In this document: positions 3,456-62,798 of the stretch, one piece after another
Position numbering within the stretch: position 1 is the first letter of the stretch
Layout of the letters: the number at the start of each line of letters is the position of its first letter
DNA from: a virus
Lineage: Duplodnaviria; Caudoviricetes
IMG/VR virus record: IMGVR_UViG_3300033067_000343
Coordinates: 17,247-81,246 of that record
Direction: 5' to 3' (one strand)
DNA: 64,000 nt
Translations under genes and position numbers: made by a program
Notes under the pieces: model-generated
Told to the model about the DNA's origin: nothing
The model's database searches: none
What the model saw: the letters and a program-made list of their open reading frames with translations, nothing else

Positions 3456-5027
3456 ATGGCTGTCGTACAGATTAGTAGAATTCAAGCCCGTAGAGGTTTA
3501 CAACAAGATTTACCAACCCTAGCAAGTGCCGAACTTGGCTGGAGCGTTGACCAGCGTAGATTGTTTATTGGTAACGGTACCCTTACTGAAGGCGCCCCTA
3601 CCGAAGGTGTTACTGAAATTTTAACTCAGTACACAGACTTAACAACAGTATTACGTAACTACACATTCCGCGGCAACGCGGGTGGATACACAGCACAAAC
3701 TGGTCCATCTATGTTGAGTCCGACTGTTCGTAGTTTCCAAGATAAACTTGACGATTTTGTTAACGTTAAAGACTTTGGTGCAACCGGTAACGGAGTTACT
3801 GATGACACAGCAGCGATTAATAGAGCCATTACACAGATCTATTATGCTCCACACCTAAATGATACAAGAGTACGCAGAACCTTGTATTTTCCTGCAGGTA
3901 CTTACAATGTATCTGGCACAGTGTTGTTAATTCCACCTTATGCACGTTTAGTTGGCGACGGTATTGAAAGTACCGTTATCCAACAAACAGACGGAACACA
4001 ACCTTGCTTAATGCAGGTAACTGACAGCTTGTACCAAACTGGTGCTAGCCTAGGTCAAAACAGTGCAACCCTACCTGGTTATGTAACTATTGAAGAAATG
4101 AGTTTAGCAAACACCAACGACAAGGACATTATTATCCTTGACAGTGTGATGCACTTTACATTCTTCTCCGTTGAGTTTTTAGGCAGTTTGTCTAACCCAA
4201 CTACCGCAGGTAGCCAAGCATACGCTGGCGTTAAGGTTAAGTCTTTTGCTCGTACCAGTGAAAACGTTAACTTCTGGTCTTGCAACTTTAAGAATACTCG
4301 TTACGCTGTGCTAAGTGATGACGCAGGTGCCGATGTTAAATTTAACGGATGCTCCTTCGTTGGTTTGTATAAAGGCATGAAGTTGGGCCAAAACAGTACG
4401 CCCACAACAATGCCATCTAACTACAAGATTATCAACTGCGTATTCTATAGCATTGCTAACTCCGCAATTGAATGCTATGCAGGTGTAAGCGGGGTATTGA
4501 GCTCTGGTAACAACTACCTTGACGTTGGCAATAACTTTGCTGGTGTGGGTAGCCCTGTAGCTCCTGTGTTGAGCTTTGTGTCTGACGGTAACTACAGCTT
4601 GTGCGACACCTTTGCACGTACTGATGCCGACGACCTTGTGCAAAAACGTATCAGCTACAACGGAAGCAAGTTTGTAAGCATTCAGTCTAACGTGGGCTTG
4701 GTATCTGGTAATTATGTAACTGGTATCGGCGGCACTGTGGTGTTAACAAACAATACACCAGTCTATGCGTCCACAGGTATTGTGTTACGTGATGCATGTC
4801 AAGTAAACTATACAATCATTCGTGGCATTACGTTAAGACATGGATCCTTTGTTTACGCTGGATCTAACTCTCAACAAAACTTTTCCGACAACTACATGAT
4901 GTCTGGATTAAATACTATCACATTATCAGCAGGCCTAACCCTAGGCGGCGATGCTGTTATTGTGTATCAGACTACTGATACTGGCGTTGACGCCACAATG
5001 AAATACAACATCAACTATTTTGATTAA
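3456..5027 (+). CDS. tail fibre/spike with pectate-lyase-like beta-helix
   Basis: N-terminal RIQARRG..L..AELGW..D..RLFIGNG anchor motif; VNVKDFGATGNGVTDDTAAINRAI; LYFPAGTY. Confidence 0.75.
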   Translation: MAVVQISRIQARRGLQQDLPTLASAELGWSVDQRRLFIGNGTLTEGAPTEGVTEILTQYTDLTTVLRNYTFRGNAGGYTAQTGPSMLSPTVRSFQDKLDDFVNVKDFGATGNGVTDDTAAINRAITQIYYAPHLNDTRVRRTLYFPAGTYNVSGTVLLIPPYARLVGDGIESTVIQQTDGTQPCLMQVTDSLYQTGASLGQNSATLPGYVTIEEMSLANTNDKDIIILDSVMHFTFFSVEFLGSLSNPTTAGSQAYAGVKVKSFARTSENVNFWSCNFKNTRYAVLSDDAGADVKFNGCSFVGLYKGMKLGQNSTPTTMPSNYKIINCVFYSIANSAIECYAGVSGVLSSGNNYLDVGNNFAGVGSPVAPVLSFVSDGNYSLCDTFARTDADDLVQKRISYNGSKFVSIQSNVGLVSGNYVTGIGGTVVLTNNTPVYASTGIVLRDACQVNYTIIRGITLRHGSFVYAGSNSQQNFSDNYMMSGLNTITLSAGLTLGGDAVIVYQTTDTGVDATMKYNINYFD

Positions 5028-5030
5028 TTA

Positions 5031-5468
5031 ATGTTTAAACTAGCAGCTACCGAGCGTTTGTCTCGGTGGCGTGAATTTCGAAAATCGCTGGACACCTTAT
5101 CTTTAGAACAAGCCGTAAAGGCCACTGTAGACTTTTGGCACGGGTGTCCTTTCTCTCCTTACTACCTTGATCCGGCAAAGCCTGAAGAATGGCCAAACCC
5201 GTGGACATTAATTGAAGAAAACTACTATTGCGATATTGCAAAAGCACTAGGCATGCTGTATACTATTAAGTTCACTGCACACAATCCTAGTGTAGAGCTA
5301 CGAATATATCTCGATCCAGAAACGCGGTACAGTTATAATTTAGTCTGGATTGACGACGGGAAATATGTTATTAATTTGATTGAAGGTGAAGTCGTAAATA
5401 AACAACTTGCCGATAATCTAACATTAAAGGTCAAATACGCAGACGAACTAAATTTGAATAGTTATTAA
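5031..5468 (+). CDS. hypothetical protein
   Basis: 145-aa ORF between tail fibre and nrdA. Confidence 0.65.
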   Translation: MFKLAATERLSRWREFRKSLDTLSLEQAVKATVDFWHGCPFSPYYLDPAKPEEWPNPWTLIEENYYCDIAKALGMLYTIKFTAHNPSVELRIYLDPETRYSYNLVWIDDGKYVINLIEGEVVNKQLADNLTLKVKYADELNLNSY

Positions 5469-5477
5469 GAGGAATCA

Positions 5478-7781
5478 ATGAGTCAAATACAAGTAACAAA
5501 AAGAGACGGACGTAAAGAGCCGCTAAATCTAGAAAAATTACATAAGGTTGTGTTTTGGGCAACCGAGGGCATTACAGGAGTTAGTGCTAGCGAAGTAGAA
5601 ATTAATAGTCATGTGCAGTTTTATAACGGTATCAAAAGCACAGACATCCAAGAAACCCTAATCAAGAGTGCAGCAGATTTAATTAGTGAAGAGTCACCCA
5701 ACTATCAATACGTTGCAGGTAGACTACTAACATATCACATCTACAAACAAGTATACGGCGGCTACACACCTTGGCCTCTACTAAAATTAGTTAAGCGTAA
5801 CATTGACATTGGTTACTACACTCCTGAGCTGTTGGAAAACTACTCAGAGGATGAGATCAATCAACTGGATACCTACCTCCACCACCGTCGTGATGAGAAC
5901 TTCACCTATGTTGCAATGGAACAATGGCGTGGCAAGTACCTAGTACAAAACCGCGTCACCAATGAGCTATACGAAACTCCACAGTCAGCATACATGATGA
6001 TTGCTGCCACGTTGTTTATGGCTTATCCTAAAGAAACACGTATGCAATGGGTAAAGGATTACTATGATGCTATTTCTAACTTTGATATTTCCTTGCCTAC
6101 TCCTGTTATGGCTGGGGTTCGCACTCCACAAAAACAATTTAGTTCGTGTGTGCTTATCGAGTCTGGCGATAGTTTGGACAGTATCAATGCTACTGCATCT
6201 TCAATCGTTAAATACGTCTCACAAAAAGCTGGAATTGGTATTGGAGCAGGACGAATTCGGGCGTTGGGTTCGCCTATCCGCTCCGGCGATGCGTACCACA
6301 CAGGAGTTACGCCCTTCCTTAAACTATTTCAGGCCGCAACACGCTCTTGTTCGCAAGGTGGCGTAAGAAACGGTGCAGCAACAATCTACTATCCAATTTG
6401 GCACTTAGAAGCCGAAGACCTATTGGTGTTGAAAAACAACAAAGGTACAGAAGACAACCGTGTTCGTCAAATGGACTACGGTGTGCAGTTCAACAAACTA
6501 ATGTATGAGCGTTTGATCACAGGCGGTGACATTACCCTGTTTAGCCCACATGATGTTCCTGAGATGTATGAAGCATTCTTTAACGACCAGGACAAGTTCC
6601 GTGAGTTGTATGAGAAAGCAGAACGTAACACCAAGCTACGTAAAAAGACTTTCAAGGCATCAGAACTGTTTAGCAAGTTCATGACTGAGCGTAAAGACAC
6701 TGGTCGCATTTATTTGATGAACGTGGACCATGCCAATACACATAGCCCATTCAAAGAAAAGCTACATCCTATCAAGATGAGCAACTTGTGTACAGAGATT
6801 GACTTGCCTACTAAGCCATTGAACGACATCAATGACGAACTAGGTCGTATTGCATTGTGTACTCTATCTGCACAGAACTGGGGCAACGTTAAGAAGCCGC
6901 AAGACTTTGAGCGTATGTGTACTCTAAGCGTTCGCGGTCTAGATGCTTTGTTGAGCTATCAGAACTATCCTGTTAAGGCAGCAGAACTAGCAACAAAAGA
7001 ATTCCGTCCAATTGGTAACGGCATTATCAACTTTGCTTACTTCTTGGCCAAGCACGATGTTAGCTACAGTGACCCTGCTGCACTTGCACTAGTTGACGAG
7101 TATGCAGAAGCATGGTCATACTACTTGATCAAAGCAAGTGCTGACCTAGCTAAAGAGCAAGGACCTTGCGAGAAGTGGGAAGAACTAAAGTATGCCGATG
7201 GTATCTTGCCAATCGACACACGTAAGAAAGAAGTTGACGAACTTGTTGAGCATAAAGAGCGTATGCCATGGCGTGCTCTGCGTGAACAGATCCTAGACTC
7301 CGGCATTCGCAATGCAACACTAATGGCTCTAATGCCAGCAGAAACATCTGCACAGATCTCTAATGCCACTAACGGTATTGAAGCTCCACGCAGCTATGTT
7401 TCTATTAAGCAAAGCAAGCACGGTGTATTGAAACAGGTTGTACCTGAATTTAAGAAACTTAAGAACAAATACGAATTGTTATGGGACCAACGTAGCCCGG
7501 AAGGCTACTTAAAACTTTGTGCAGTATTGCAAAAATGGATTGATCAAGGCATTAGTGTCAACACTTCGTACAATCCTAAGTTCTACGAAGATGAAAAGAT
7601 CCCTATGAGTGAGATGCTCCAGCACCTGATCATGTGCTACAAATACGGAACTAAACAACTTTACTATTTCAACACCAATGATGGTCAGGGCGAAATTGAC
7701 GTTGATAAGTTATCAGCTGCATTACAATTGCCAGCAGAAGAACTTATGGACCAAGAAGATTGCGATTCCTGCGTAATTTAA
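5478..7781 (+). CDS. nrdA: class Ia ribonucleotide reductase alpha subunit
   Basis: ATP cone (VTKRDG), SSCVLI, GGVRNGA, SNLCTEI, PAETS, C-terminal CDSC. Confidence 0.97.
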   Translation: MSQIQVTKRDGRKEPLNLEKLHKVVFWATEGITGVSASEVEINSHVQFYNGIKSTDIQETLIKSAADLISEESPNYQYVAGRLLTYHIYKQVYGGYTPWPLLKLVKRNIDIGYYTPELLENYSEDEINQLDTYLHHRRDENFTYVAMEQWRGKYLVQNRVTNELYETPQSAYMMIAATLFMAYPKETRMQWVKDYYDAISNFDISLPTPVMAGVRTPQKQFSSCVLIESGDSLDSINATASSIVKYVSQKAGIGIGAGRIRALGSPIRSGDAYHTGVTPFLKLFQAATRSCSQGGVRNGAATIYYPIWHLEAEDLLVLKNNKGTEDNRVRQMDYGVQFNKLMYERLITGGDITLFSPHDVPEMYEAFFNDQDKFRELYEKAERNTKLRKKTFKASELFSKFMTERKDTGRIYLMNVDHANTHSPFKEKLHPIKMSNLCTEIDLPTKPLNDINDELGRIALCTLSAQNWGNVKKPQDFERMCTLSVRGLDALLSYQNYPVKAAELATKEFRPIGNGIINFAYFLAKHDVSYSDPAALALVDEYAEAWSYYLIKASADLAKEQGPCEKWEELKYADGILPIDTRKKEVDELVEHKERMPWRALREQILDSGIRNATLMALMPAETSAQISNATNGIEAPRSYVSIKQSKHGVLKQVVPEFKKLKNKYELLWDQRSPEGYLKLCAVLQKWIDQGISVNTSYNPKFYEDEKIPMSEMLQHLIMCYKYGTKQLYYFNTNDGQGEIDVDKLSAALQLPAEELMDQEDCDSCVI

Positions 7782-61001: not shown

Positions 61002-61145
61002 ATGCAATGCTCAGATTCGAAACCATCAAAGAATGAACCAGTTACGTTTAGTAGAACATGGATGTTTGGCTGCGGTAGCTGCGACACCAAACGTTCCGTA
61101 CCTTGCAAAAACTGCAAACATTTTGTTCAAACTGTTGCAAAATAA
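61002..61145 (+). CDS. small zinc-finger protein (47 aa, not in track)
   Basis: SD AAGGAG; CGSC-x7-CKNC. Confidence 0.6.
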   Translation: MQCSDSKPSKNEPVTFSRTWMFGCGSCDTKRSVPCKNCKHFVQTVAK

Positions 61146-61163
61146 ATCTAGTTGTTATATAAT
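61135..61163 (+). promoter_or_regulatory. sigma70 promoter for tRNA operon
   Basis: TTGCAA-17-TATAAT, 8 nt before tRNA. Confidence 0.7.
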
Positions 61164-61171
61164 ACACACAT

Positions 61172-61246
61172 GCGTTAGTAGCTAAGTGGCATAGCAGGCG
61201 ATTCTAAACCGCTGAATCACGGGTTCGATTCCCGTCTAACGCACCA
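61172..61246 (+). tRNA. amber suppressor tRNA, anticodon CUA
   Basis: 7-bp acceptor GCGTTAG/CTAACGC, D-arm GCTA/TAGC, loop TT-CTA-AA, T-arm ACGGG-TTCGATT-CCCGT, A73, encoded CCA. Confidence 0.9.
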
Positions 61247-61456
61247 TAGTAGAGTGCATCGTAAGCCGTTAGTGGTTGAGCCTGAACGAGCACACAGTAT
61301 TCCTAGGATAGCTGGTCGCAGCCGAGGTAACGCTCATCGCCACATCCAATGTATTCTACTATGGTTCATATTGAAGTGCTTTGAAGGAGCAGACCGGCGC
61401 ACAACTCCGCGGTAAGTGATAGTGGCCTTAGCATGCAGCAGAACACTTCAATATGG
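61243..61456 (+). ncRNA. two tandem long-stem RNA modules trailing the tRNA
   Basis: 17-bp stem 61243-61259/61349-61365; 13+4-bp stem 61366-61383/61439-61456. Confidence 0.55.
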
Positions 61457-61472
61457 TTAATAAGGAAAATAC

Positions 61473-61754
61473 ATGCAAGTAATGCACGACAGAGTTTTAA
61501 TTAGAAAGCTCGAACCCGAAACAAAATCCGCAGGCGGCATTATGCTAACCTCTTCTGTTACTCCAGTTTACGAAGCTGAAGTGGTTGCAGTTGGCACAGG
61601 CAAACCAGTTAAAGACAGTGCTCCGATTCCGCTTACAGTAAAAGTAGGCGACCAAGTAATTTACAACCCTGCTGCGACTATCACAGTTTCAGTTAAAGGT
61701 GAAACTTTACTGGTCATCAAAGAAGAAGAAATCTTTGCAATTTTAGACAAGTGA
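61473..61754 (+). CDS. groES: co-chaperonin GroES
   Basis: HDRVLI, SAGGIML mobile loop, VVAVGTG, VKVGD.V, KEEEIFAI. Confidence 0.92.
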   Translation: MQVMHDRVLIRKLEPETKSAGGIMLTSSVTPVYEAEVVAVGTGKPVKDSAPIPLTVKVGDQVIYNPAATITVSVKGETLLVIKEEEIFAILDK

Positions 61755-62038
61755 CAGATTACCTGCTTCGTCATGCATTGAGCGATTCTGACATTGAGTT
61801 TCTAAATGAAACCACAGTGGATTTTGAGATTGTCGGCCCAGATGAGCCAGTATCAGACACAAACTCATTTGATAGTGGGTGGTGTGATATGGCAACTAAT
61901 GCACGTATCATTGCCCATACCAATAGAGCAGTGTTTAGAAATGTTGGCGATCAAGAGTACACGTACTTGAAACTTCGCTATCAAGATCGCCTAATTGAAA
62001 TGCATGACGGCATCAGAAAGATATATAATATAGCATAG
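61751..62038 (+). CDS. hypothetical protein (TAG stop, in frame with next gene)
   Basis: GTGA overlap with groES. Confidence 0.6.
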   Translation: MTDYLLRHALSDSDIEFLNETTVDFEIVGPDEPVSDTNSFDSGWCDMATNARIIAHTNRAVFRNVGDQEYTYLKLRYQDRLIEMHDGIRKIYNIA

Positions 62039-62059
62039 ACATTAACAAAGGAGAACCAA

Positions 62060-62644
62060 ATGTCAAAAACTCAATCGTAGATCAATTACCAATGTAAGGA
62101 ATTAGTGTTCCACTTCAATAAGGGACATCTTACAGATCCGACCATTCCTATGTGGGTCGTTAAAGCACATGGTGTAACATTCTACGTGAATCACGTTACA
62201 GCAGAAATACCTTGGAGCACCAAGGAAACTCCCGATAACCCCAGTACCAAAGGCAGCATCAAATTTAAACGATGTAAGCTAACCATTGACTCCGATAACT
62301 GTGCAACGTTATCTAAGTTAGGCATGCTTGATCGTAATTTGCCAACGCCACACTTGCCGTTTGACCGCATTATTGCACCTGCATATAATGACTTGGCAAC
62401 AGCATTGGAAAACAACGAGTTTAAGCACAGCAAGATCAAATACGTCGAAGGTGCGTGTAGCAGTGAGTTTATCATTTGCGACATTACTGACCGAGATGAT
62501 ATGTTGATGATGGGGCTCAAGTATCCAAATCAATTCCGAGTGCTAAATGCTAACGAAGCCTATTACAAGGACTACGATGGCAAACACAACTCACTTAACA
62601 TGCGTGGCGGTGAAGGGTTTGATGATGACGACTTTGAGGATTAA
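62060..62644 (+). CDS. hypothetical protein with in-frame TAG at codon 7 (candidate amber read-through)
   Basis: AAGGAG-6 nt-ATG TCA AAA ACT CAA TCG TAG ATC AAT ... continuous with track ORF 62105-62644. Confidence 0.6.
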
Positions 62645-62798
62645 AGCCCAGAACATTGCGGAAGTTGCAAAGCTGTTGAAAACCGAAAAGGTGTGGCATA
62701 TGCCTTTTCGTTACAATCAAGGGCACTATGAGATTACACTCAAAGCAGATTCCCCAATGGGCAGCTTATTGGAACTAAAGTACAACAATTTGGCGTAA
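62622..62798 (+). CDS. hypothetical protein
   Basis: probable start ATG 62622. Confidence 0.5.
   Translation: MMTTLRIKAQNIAEVAKLLKTEKVWHMPFRYNQGHYEITLKADSPMGSLLELKYNNLA

What the first reader, a model, noticed from the sequence alone, without database searches (positions are those of the whole stretch)
61751..62644. In-frame TAG downstream of the suppressor tRNA: candidate suppressor-dependent gene or read-through fusion
Seen: strong SD AAGGAG 6 nt before ATG 62060, giving MSKTQS-TAG(62078-62080)-INYQCKELVFHFNKGHL, continuous to 62644. The preceding gene 61751-62038 also ends in TAG and is in the same frame with no other stop, so double suppression would give one 297-aa protein. Both lie in the apparent tRNA-groES operon. 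Caveats: GTG 62105 has a closely spaced AAGGA and could be an independent start, and the TAG could be a point mutation. Inference: expression may be gated by the phage's own suppressor tRNA.
Basis: partly seen in the sequence, partly recalled or inferred. Interest (0 to 1): 0.8.

Follow-up and report, generated by a model that had tools for sequence, protein, structure and literature searches.

The report
Amber-gated phage gene with own tRNA
A large freshwater phage with the normal genetic code keeps a UAG stop as the seventh codon of one conserved gene, downstream of its own UAG-reading tRNA. Dozens of diverged relatives keep the same pairing, so it looks like a natural one-codon translational switch that I could not find described.

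Summary
AAGGAG, 6 nt, ATG 62060, five codons, TAG 62078-62080, then an open frame to TAA 62642-62644, 814 nt downstream of tRNA(CUA) 61172-61246.

It is not a mutation. In 66 distinct related viral contexts the nearest in-frame upstream stop is always TAG, never TAA or TGA. In 55 it lies exactly 10 codons before the FHFNK motif. It follows an RBS, ATG and mostly 0-5 variable codons, and is followed by ATH (Ile).

Codons after the TAG vary synonymously and form the first beta-strand of a confident model. GTG 62105 is a non-start codon in 19 of 55 relatives.

A co-oriented tRNA(CUA) is present in 70 of 80 loci. Eight of the other ten have under 900 nt of upstream sequence.

The 81-kb record is not recoded: TAG ends about 13 of 134 ORFs and no other gene has this leader.

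In a related operon, cultured Sinorhizobium phage Phosso has TAG with tRNA(CUA). Agrobacterium phage Atu_ph07 has TGA with tRNA(UCA).

The 297-aa fusion with the upstream ORF is not conserved. The protein's function and the inserted residue are unknown, and nothing is experimental.

This scan has noted the same module before on other DNA (50 findings, at least 43 genomes). I found no publication.

The parts
61135..61163 (+). sigma-70-like promoter match (TTGCAA, 17 nt, TATAAT) just upstream of the tRNA
   Evidence: This is a consensus match only, and the number found is not above the shuffled expectation. No + strand terminator-like site lies between here and 62644.
61172..61246 (+). amber-suppressor tRNA, anticodon CUA, A73, encoded CCA
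   Evidence: It belongs to a family of 47 distinct sequences. In that family 98.4% of cells are paired and 14 of 19 pairs show compensatory changes. G1-C72, C2-G71, G3-C70, A73 and the loop U-CUA-A are invariant.
61473..61754 (+). GroES/Cpn10 gene between the tRNA and the gated gene
   Evidence: PF00166, E 7.6e-23. A GroES cluster is found upstream of the gene in 11 related loci.
61751..62038 (+). 95-aa ORF of unknown function that ends in TAG, in frame with the next gene by coincidence
   Evidence: no Pfam or PHROG match. In L001 and L003-L005 the upstream frame is closed by TAA.
62048..62053 (+). Shine-Dalgarno AAGGAG, 6 nt before the ATG
   Evidence: An SD-like site precedes the leader start codon in 64 of 66 distinct contexts.
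62060..62077 (+). leader: ATG plus five sense codons (M-S-K-T-Q-S), variable in length and sequence among relatives
   Evidence: Sense codons between the start and the TAG: 1 (32 contexts), 3 (17), 2 (8), 0 (3), 8 (2), 4 (1), 5 (1); two contexts have no SD-preceded start.
62078..62080 (+). conserved in-frame amber codon TAG
   Evidence: TAG is the nearest in-frame upstream stop in 66 of 66 distinct contexts, never TAA or TGA.
62081..62083 (+). invariant Ile codon (ATC here) directly after the TAG; base +4 is A
   Evidence: ATT 51, ATC 11, ATA 2; base +4 is A in 65 of 66 contexts. ATH also follows the TAG in the amber-led PTH2-like gene of the subclade whose X gene has no TAG.
62081..62644 (+). 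body of the gated protein (187 aa after the TAG; 194 aa with leader), unknown family, two domains
   Evidence: More than 1200 homologues, with no Pfam or PHROG family. Full model pLDDT 81. N-domain model (62081-62368) pLDDT 91.9, with its first strand starting right after the TAG. The C-domain (about residues 98-176) has a generic ferredoxin-like fold, Z at most 4.8.
62105..62107 (+). GTG that ORF finders take as the start (VFHFNK); probably an internal Val codon
   Evidence: This codon is GTG in 36 and GTC, GTT or GTA in 19 of 55 contexts. Starting here would remove 8 residues of beta-strand 1.
62625..62798 (+). small downstream ORF overlapping the end of the gated gene
   Evidence: A homologous ORF of about 71 aa lies directly downstream in 21 loci; no Pfam match.

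Best explanation
Gene 62060-62644 is a real, intact gene whose seventh codon is a deliberately kept UAG. Ribosomes that start at the strong RBS and ATG are released by RF1 after a 6-residue peptide, unless the phage's own tRNA(CUA) decodes the UAG. That tRNA lies 814 nt upstream on the same strand, with no terminator-like site between. When it decodes the UAG, the 194-aa protein is made. The amber codon therefore works as a translational AND-gate or threshold. The protein appears only when, and in proportion as, the suppressor tRNA is made, processed and charged. Shown here: conservation of the TAG, its linkage to the tRNA, and protein-level constraint right after it. Inferred: the read-through itself, the residue inserted, co-transcription, and the purpose of the gate.
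For: (1) All 66 distinct related contexts have TAG as the nearest in-frame upstream stop. In 55 of them it lies exactly 10 codons before FHFNK. None has TAA or TGA, although TAG is the rarest stop of long ORFs in these loci (50 of 804).
(2) The nine codons after the TAG are conserved as protein with synonymous variation: TAT 36 / TAC 14, AAG 23 / AAA 23, GAC 28 / GAT 21. They form beta-strand 1 of a pLDDT 91.9 model.
(3) No conserved start lies downstream: the Val codon before FHFNK is a non-start codon in 19 of 55 contexts.
(4) A tRNA(CUA) of one covarying family lies nearby in 70 of 80 loci, upstream and co-oriented in nearly all (57 by ARAGORN, 13 more by covariance model R1). Eight of the other ten loci hold under 900 nt of upstream sequence.
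(5) The leader is portable. In the subclade whose X gene has no TAG (L028, L083, L086-L091), the tRNA(CUA) is kept. There a PTH2-like gene upstream in the same gene string carries RBS, ATG, one codon, TAG, ATH.
(6) Stop codon and anticodon covary in cultured phages. Bona fide PTH2 genes (PF01981, 73-74 bits) head the operon that also holds an X N-domain protein. They carry in-frame TAG in Phosso and in 12 metagenomic jumbo phages. Phosso and all five complete records searched have tRNA(CUA). Atu_ph07 instead carries in-frame TGA, and its only suppressor is tRNA(UCA).
(7) Cultured Rhizobium phage RHph_I1_18 has an unannotated 82-aa N-domain-only homologue with M-S-E-F-M-TAG, directly followed by tRNA(CUA).
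(8) Database proteins with Q at this position are code-15 translations of TAG.
Against: Nothing is experimental. Expression, processing and charging of the tRNA, and the residue it inserts, are unknown. A strong suppressor should also read through the roughly 13 ordinary TAG stops of this record, including the two genes flanking the tRNA operon. One locus with 3.7 kb of upstream sequence (L017, whole record searched) and one with 7 kb (L073) show no tRNA(CUA), but both records are small fragments. The stop/anticodon covariation rests on a single TGA/UCA case, and in the sister PTH2 gene rather than in X itself. In some related phages with tRNA(CUA), such as XacN1, the PTH2 gene has an ordinary start. 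The function of the gated protein is unknown, so the benefit of gating is conjecture.
Confidence: 0.8

Rival explanations
1. Termination-reinitiation. The ATG-to-TAG stretch is a separate minigene. After RF1 releases the short peptide, the ribosome restarts at the adjacent ATH codon or nearby. The TAG would then sense RF1, not the tRNA.
For: ATH follows the TAG in 64 of 66 contexts, and ATT is a known rare bacterial start codon (own knowledge, infC). The leader is very short, as in coupled minigenes.
Against: Any stop codon would serve for coupling, yet only TAG is found, 66 of 66. The tRNA(CUA) co-occurs in 70 of 80 loci. In the PTH2 clade the codon after the stop is GAA, GTT, GAC or CAA, none of them a start codon. 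TGA pairs with tRNA(UCA) in Atu_ph07.
Confidence: 0.08
2. The true start is GTG 62105, with AAGGA 4 nt upstream, giving a 179-aa protein. The upstream ATG-to-TAG stretch is an unrelated or merely regulatory uORF.
For: An AAGGA lies close before the GTG. 37 of 120 database homologues are called from this position.
Against: That codon is GTC, GTT or GTA in 19 of 55 relatives. The AAGGA is simply the Lys-Glu/Asp codons. The 8 residues upstream are conserved as protein and belong to beta-strand 1. The truncated database calls are what gene finders produce when they meet a TAG.
Confidence: 0.06
3. Double read-through makes a functional 297-aa fusion of ORF 61751-62038 with the downstream gene.
For: Both lie in the same frame, separated only by TAG codons.
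Against: In the nearest relatives the upstream frame holds TAA stops (L001, L003-L005). The gene has its own strong RBS and ATG. One pair of neighbouring genes in three shares a frame by chance.
Confidence: 0.03
4. Genome-wide or block-wise TAG reassignment (code 15), as in crAss-like and Lak phages.
For: A suppressor tRNA(CUA) is present. Public gene callers translated relatives with TAG=Q.
Against: TAG ends about 13 of 134 ORFs in the 81-kb record. No two frames of at least 80 codons are joined by a TAG. No other gene has the leader. The one other candidate, at window 46770, is an antisense-frame artefact. Only 81 kb of a probably larger genome could be examined.
Confidence: 0.02
5. Pseudogene, recent nonsense mutation or assembly error.
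For: A single in-frame stop early in a gene.
Against: The same codon sits at the same place in 66 distinct contexts down to 51% protein identity. A related-strain contig from an independent river metagenome aligns from 62078, and its own upstream letters end in ATG plus three codons directly before the TAG.
Confidence: 0.01

Closest known systems
Stop-codon-recoded phages with phage-encoded suppressor tRNAs (TAG read as Gln, 'code 15': crAss-like, Lak and other gut phages; bioRxiv 10.1101/2021.08.26.457843; PMC9523058)
   Same: A phage-encoded tRNA(CUA) is proposed to decode in-frame UAG in phage genes, in a host with the standard code. Read-through is proposed to regulate expression.
   Different: In those phages many, mostly late, genes hold many in-frame TAGs, and TAG is lost as a stop. 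Here one codon in one gene (or two genes of one operon) is affected, always within the first few codons. TAG remains an ordinary stop elsewhere. That preprint does not describe such a single-gene leader.
prfB (RF2) autoregulation through an early in-frame UGA (own knowledge)
   Same: A stop codon placed early in a coding sequence acts as a sensor of how that stop is being decoded.
   Different: prfB is rescued by a +1 frameshift, and the product is the factor that reads the stop. Here no frameshift is needed, rescue is by a dedicated tRNA, and it is unknown whether the product acts on UAG decoding.
Synthetic suppressor-tRNA feed-forward circuits (PMC7969014; PMC13276491)
   Same: A suppressor tRNA plus an amber codon near the start of the target gene forms a coherent feed-forward AND-gate that removes leak.
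   Different: Those are engineered in E. coli. This is a natural, conserved arrangement in phages.
Suppressor tRNAs of standard-code cultured phages with no known target (XacN1, PMC5852040; Atu_ph07, PMC6102473; Summit, PMC9022506)
   Same: The same kind of phage and tRNA. Atu_ph07 itself belongs to the set analysed here.
   Different: The XacN1 authors looked only downstream of gene-terminal amber stops and reported no target, the Atu_ph07 authors only counted UGA stops as potential targets, and the Summit authors identified none. The target proposed here is an early in-frame stop that gene callers hide by choosing an internal start. XacN1's own PTH2 has an ordinary start.
Programmed stop-codon read-through in viruses (Q-beta A1 protein, MuLV gag-pol, alphavirus nsP3 opal; own knowledge; 10.1101/2024.08.21.609082)
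   Same: A conserved in-frame stop is partly read through to set the amount of a product.
   Different: Those use host near-cognate tRNAs, and the stop sits at the end of a first functional protein, giving a C-terminal extension. Here the stop precedes the whole protein and is paired with a virus-encoded cognate tRNA.

Membership tests
Code-15 (TAG-reassigned) phage | Many conserved genes interrupted by in-frame TAG | tested here: not met
   Only one gene in the 81-kb record has an in-frame TAG. No TAG joins two frames of at least 80 codons.
Code-15 (TAG-reassigned) phage | TAG no longer used as a stop | tested here: not met
   TAG ends about 13 of 134 ORFs here and 50 of 804 long ORFs in related loci.
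Code-15 (TAG-reassigned) phage | Phage-encoded suppressor tRNA(CUA) | tested here: met
   tRNA at 61172-61246.
tRNA (Rfam RF00005) | Cloverleaf scoring above the gathering threshold, supported by covariation | tested here: met
   62.7 bits against a threshold of 29. 98.4% of cells paired and 14 of 19 pairs with compensatory changes across 47 sequences; 0 of 500 shuffles reach this.
tRNA identity (which amino acid is inserted) | Identity elements or a closest isoacceptor that point to one synthetase | tested here: inconclusive
   G1-C72, C2-G71, G3-C70, A73 and U35 are invariant. The nearest typed phage tRNAs are mixed: Lys, Trp, Met, Thr.
Any Pfam or PHROG family for the gated protein | Profile match | tested here: not met
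   No Pfam-A or PHROG hit at E up to 0.1. No PDB sequence relative.
Known protein fold for the gated protein | Structural match clearly above background | tested here: inconclusive
   Foldseek E at least 0.027. VIA-align best Z 4.8 for the whole protein (C-domain, ferredoxin-like) and Z 3.2 for the N-domain.
PTH2 peptidyl-tRNA hydrolase (PF01981), the second amber-led gene in relatives | Pfam score above the gathering threshold | tested here: met
   Atu_ph07 73.9 bits and Phosso 72.9 bits against a threshold of 23. The match begins upstream of the annotated start. The L083/L028-type protein scores only 18.5 and 15.3 bits, which is inconclusive.
prfB-type autoregulatory early stop | Early in-frame stop in the coding sequence | tested here: met
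   TAG at codon 7 here, and mostly at codons 1-6 in relatives.
prfB-type autoregulatory early stop | The product controls decoding of that stop; rescue by +1 frameshift | not testable with these tools
   The function of the product is unknown. No frameshift is needed, as the frame is continuous.

The most novel reading that the evidence does not exclude
The amber leader is not only a gate but closes a feedback loop. The gated proteins are the unknown two-domain protein and, in sister phages, a PTH2-type hydrolase in the same operon. They would act on the suppressor tRNA, on its (peptidyl-)aminoacyl form or on termination at UAG. The phage would then measure and set its own level of stop-codon read-through. 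This would be a virus-borne counterpart of prfB autoregulation, built from a tRNA, one codon and an effector.
Probability: 0.2. Interest if true: 0.9.

Novelty: new variant of a known kind. Interest (0 to 1): 0.8.

Why it matters
Suppressor tRNAs are regularly found in cultured phages that use the standard code, and published genome papers state that no target could be identified (XacN1, Atu_ph07, Summit). This finding gives a concrete, conserved target class: genes whose first few codons include the matching stop. Gene callers hide that stop by choosing an internal start or by switching to code 15.

If confirmed, it would be a natural single-codon translational switch driven by a virus-encoded tRNA. 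It could be tested directly in cultured Rhizobium, Sinorhizobium and Agrobacterium phages. It may represent an intermediate stage on the way to full stop-codon reassignment.

It also corrects annotations. The RHph_I1_18 gene is missing from its record, and the PTH2 genes of Phosso and Atu_ph07 are annotated from an internal Met.

Tried and rejected
Function of the gated protein:
- Pfam, PHROGs, PDB sequence profiles and the ESM Atlas gave nothing.
- Foldseek and VIA-align on the whole model and on the N-domain gave only weak rows. Several ADP-ribosyltransferase and OB-fold chains scored Z 2-3.2, and ACT/RRM-like chains scored Z under 5 for the C-domain. I draw no function from them.
- Neighbour clustering showed frequent downstream AhpC/TSA, CMD/AhpD-like and GDSL genes but no link to translation.
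- A profile search of 1.84 billion representatives gave 140 clusters in three architectures and no informative fusion.

tRNA identity:
- Comparison with typed phage tRNAs was ambiguous.

Other TAG clients:
- A tblastn scan of read-through frames was swamped by off-frame hits.
- The candidate at window 46770 is an antisense-frame artefact.

Context of real TAG stops:
- Base +4 is not depleted in A (38% A), so there is no sign that real stops avoid the leader's context.

PTH2 in other cultured jumbo phages:
- XacN1, RsoM2USA and Xoo-sp13 PTH2 genes have ordinary starts.

Loci without the tRNA:
- Whole-record searches of five small fragments (3-14% complete) gave no top hit in the range of the confirmed tRNA(CUA) family. 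Four had no hit at all. The hits in the fifth (G009) were not typed.

Reads:
- Apart from the probable source run, no contig bridged the TAG with 31 letters on both sides.
- An RNA-library contig (62063-62219) covers the TAG but does not prove transcription.

Literature:
- Six full-text searches and three papers read found no description of the arrangement.

Full report
**1. What is in the window.**
The window is the last 64 kb of a single 81,246-bp viral record, with nearly all genes on the + strand. The order of features is as follows.
- A sigma-70-like site at 61135-61163.
- tRNA(CUA) at 61172-61246.
- A 214-nt non-coding stretch.
- GroES at 61473-61754.
- A 95-aa ORF at 61751-62038 that ends in TAG.
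- AAGGAG at 62048-62053, then ATG 62060, five codons, TAG 62078-62080, ATC, and an open frame to TAA 62642-62644.

**2. The genome is not recoded.**
Among + strand ORFs of at least 80 aa, the stops are TAA 76, TGA 28 and TAG 14. In a non-overlapping set they are 88, 33 and 13. No TAG joins two frames of at least 80 codons. A scan for 'RBS, start, at most 10 codons, stop, at least 60 open codons' finds only this gene convincingly. One other possible TAG junction, at window 46770, is an antisense-frame artefact. Only 81 kb could be examined. Relatives lie on contigs up to 374 kb, so this record is probably a fragment.

**3. The TAG is conserved.**
The protein has more than 1200 database homologues and no Pfam or PHROG family. 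Eighty related viral loci were fetched, at 51-88% identity.
- In 66 distinct sequence contexts the nearest in-frame upstream stop is always TAG.
- In 55 of these it lies exactly 10 codons before the F of FHFNK.
- It is preceded by an RBS and ATG with 1 (32 contexts), 3 (17), 2 (8), 0 (3), 8 (2), 4 (1) or 5 (1) sense codons. These codons are not conserved in sequence.
- It is followed by ATT (51), ATC (11) or ATA (2). Base +4 is A in 65 of 66 contexts.

TAA and TGA never occur here, although TAG is the rarest real stop in these loci, at 50 of 804 long ORFs. Database proteins that show Q at this position are code-15 translations of TAG, shown for the closest one. Another 37 of 120 are truncated calls that start at FHFNK.

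**4. The stretch after the TAG is coding, and no other start is conserved.**
The codons after the TAG read I-E-Y-x-C-K-D-(L/V)-V. They show typical synonymous variation: TAT 36 / TAC 14, TGT 47 / TGC 6, AAG 23 / AAA 23, GAC 28 / GAT 21. The Val codon that ORF finders use as a start is GTG in 36 contexts but GTC, GTT or GTA in 19. In AlphaFold models these residues form the first beta-strand of the fold. The whole-protein model has pLDDT 81 and the N-domain alone has pLDDT 91.9 and pTM 0.81.

**5. Linkage to the tRNA.**
ARAGORN finds a tRNA(CUA) in 57 of 80 loci, on the same strand and almost always 130-3500 nt upstream. A covariance model built from 47 distinct sequences finds 13 more, with unusual D- or T-loops. 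Of the 10 loci without it, 8 hold under 900 nt of upstream sequence. The other two are L017 and L073, both small fragments.

The tRNA family is clearly under selection. 98.4% of cells are paired, and 14 of 19 pairs show compensatory changes. The first three acceptor pairs, A73 and the loop U-CUA-A are invariant.

**6. The leader is a portable device.**
About a quarter of the homologues lack the TAG and start M-S-A-I-N-Y or M-L-N-Y. In eight such loci (L028, L083, L086-L091) two things hold.
- The tRNA(CUA) is still present, 1-2.6 kb upstream.
- A small PTH2-like gene upstream in the same gene string carries RBS, ATG, one codon, TAG, ATH. In L087/L088 this leader stands before the insertion described in section 12.

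The PTH2-like assignment is weak, at Pfam E 0.002. In those loci the X gene overlaps the end of the preceding ORF by about 8-14 nt, so it may remain indirectly gated by translational coupling. That is an inference.

**7. Covariation of stop and anticodon in cultured phages.**
Sinorhizobium phage Phosso and Agrobacterium phage Atu_ph07 share an operon: PTH2, a small ORF, a protein ending in the X N-domain, and a phosphatase.
- Both PTH2 genes are bona fide (PF01981, 72.9 and 73.9 bits). The Pfam match starts upstream of the annotated internal Met.
- In Phosso the upstream frame reads RBS, ATG, AAG, TAT, TAG. The best match in that genome to the tRNA model is a tRNA(CUA).
- In Atu_ph07 the upstream frame reads ATG, five codons, TGA, ATT. 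The best match in that genome is a tRNA(UCA). Its genome paper lists this as the only suppressor, and names no specific target.
- Twelve further jumbo-phage loci of this PTH2 clade all carry TAG in the leader. All five complete records searched hold tRNA(CUA), usually a few kb upstream on the same strand.

This is one compensatory switch, TGA with UCA against many TAG with CUA.

**8. A third cultured case.**
In Rhizobium phage RHph_I1_18 an unannotated 82-aa N-domain-only homologue reads M-S-E-F-M-TAG-N-E-S-C-R-E-V-I-F-H-F-N-K. It is followed 12 nt later by an annotated tRNA(cta).

**9. Rivals.**
- Reinitiation at the ATH codon would explain the invariant Ile. It does not explain the exclusive use of TAG, the tRNA linkage, the non-start codons after the stop in the PTH2 clade, or the TGA/UCA pair.
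- The GTG start is not conserved.
- The 297-aa fusion is not conserved, because TAA closes the upstream frame in L001 and L003-L005.
- Mutation or sequencing error is excluded by conservation. In addition, a related-strain contig from an independent river metagenome aligns from 62078, and its own upstream letters end in ATG plus three codons directly before the TAG.

**10. What remains unknown.**
- The function of the protein. Fold and profile searches gave nothing above background.
- The residue inserted. tRNA identity is ambiguous.
- Whether the tRNA is expressed and charged.
- How the phage tolerates read-through of its ordinary TAG stops.
- What the gate is for.

The invariant A at +4 fits the classical finding that amber suppression is most efficient with a 3' purine (own knowledge: Bossi 1983; Miller and Albertini 1983). 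This is an inference. The record also carries a tmRNA-like and an ArfA-like feature according to other first-stage notes, which I did not check.

**11. Relation to what is known.**
Full-text searches and reading of the main recoding preprint and of the XacN1 and Atu_ph07 papers found no description of a dedicated amber-led gene paired with a phage suppressor tRNA. The XacN1 paper states that no target could be identified, and the Atu_ph07 paper names none. The closest natural analogues are code-15 phages and prfB. The closest in logic is a synthetic suppressor-tRNA feed-forward loop (PMC7969014).

Within this scan the same module has already been noted on other DNA: 50 findings in at least 43 genomes, several on this very protein family. 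My conclusions rest on my own tests, and they agree with those notes.

**12. Things seen beside the question.**
In L087/L088 the PTH2-like gene appears to be split. Its amber leader is followed by a minus-strand NUMOD3 homing-endonuclease gene, and the PTH2-like body lies beyond that.

In the river metagenome X4, contigs of related strains skip 61244-61367 and 61359-61452. Each skip is roughly one of the two long-stem modules that follow the tRNA here.

Noticed in passing
window 61243-61456: River-metagenome contigs of related strains skip 61244-61367 (122 nt) and 61359-61452 (92 nt). Each is roughly one of the two long-stem modules after the tRNA, so these modules behave as insertions or deletions between strains (table 5). 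No Rfam family matches there.
   Followed up: partly
L083:9238-9330, L028:9234-9330, L087:4410-4500, L089:4848-4980, L091:5028-5125: In the subclade whose X gene has no TAG, an SD-less mini-ORF of about 30-45 codons starts M-x-TAG-I. In four of the five it lies right behind a TAAATA-like motif (in L089 the nearest is ATAAATATT, further upstream). It sits between the tRNA(CUA) and the amber-led PTH2-like gene.
   Followed up: partly
L087/L088:4510-5710: The amber-led PTH2-like gene seems to be split. The leader M-T-TAG-I is followed by a minus-strand NUMOD3 homing-endonuclease gene (4527-5282), and the PTH2-like body lies at 5340-5708.
   Followed up: no
L084:2983-3231 (MN988519.1, Rhizobium phage RHph_I1_18): An unannotated 82-aa ORF with an in-frame TAG, homologous to the N-domain, lies directly before the annotated tRNA-Pyl(cta). 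The public record has no CDS here.
   Followed up: yes
L092:1372-1866 (PV764938.1) and L085:1932-2381 (MF403008.1): The PTH2 genes of Phosso and Atu_ph07 are annotated from an internal Met that cuts off the start of the Pfam domain. The conserved frame continues upstream across TAG or TGA to an ATG, preceded by AGGAG in Phosso and by AAAGG in Atu_ph07.
   Followed up: yes
L010, L050, L034, L021, L027, L016, L018, L023, L024, L080, L007, L072, L045: ARAGORN misses 13 tRNA(CUA) genes that a covariance model finds at 51-84 bits. The alignments shown (six of them) have odd D-loops without the GG, or T-loops such as GGTTTGA or GGTTAGA.
   Followed up: partly
L022:6092-6260; window 62625-62798: The small ORF just downstream of the gated gene is conserved in 21 loci. 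In L022 it has its own M-N-V-T-T-I-TAG-I start, whereas the window has a sense codon (AGG) at that place.
   Followed up: no
80 related loci plus the 81-kb record: TAG is the rarest stop of long + strand ORFs (50 of 804, against TAA 520 and TGA 234). 21 of the 50 TAG stops are followed by another TAG as the next in-frame stop.
   Followed up: no
L008:733-2283 and 30-odd other loci: An AhpC/TSA peroxiredoxin, a CMD/AhpD-like protein and a GDSL hydrolase often lie just downstream of the gated gene in related phages. They are absent from this window.
   Followed up: no
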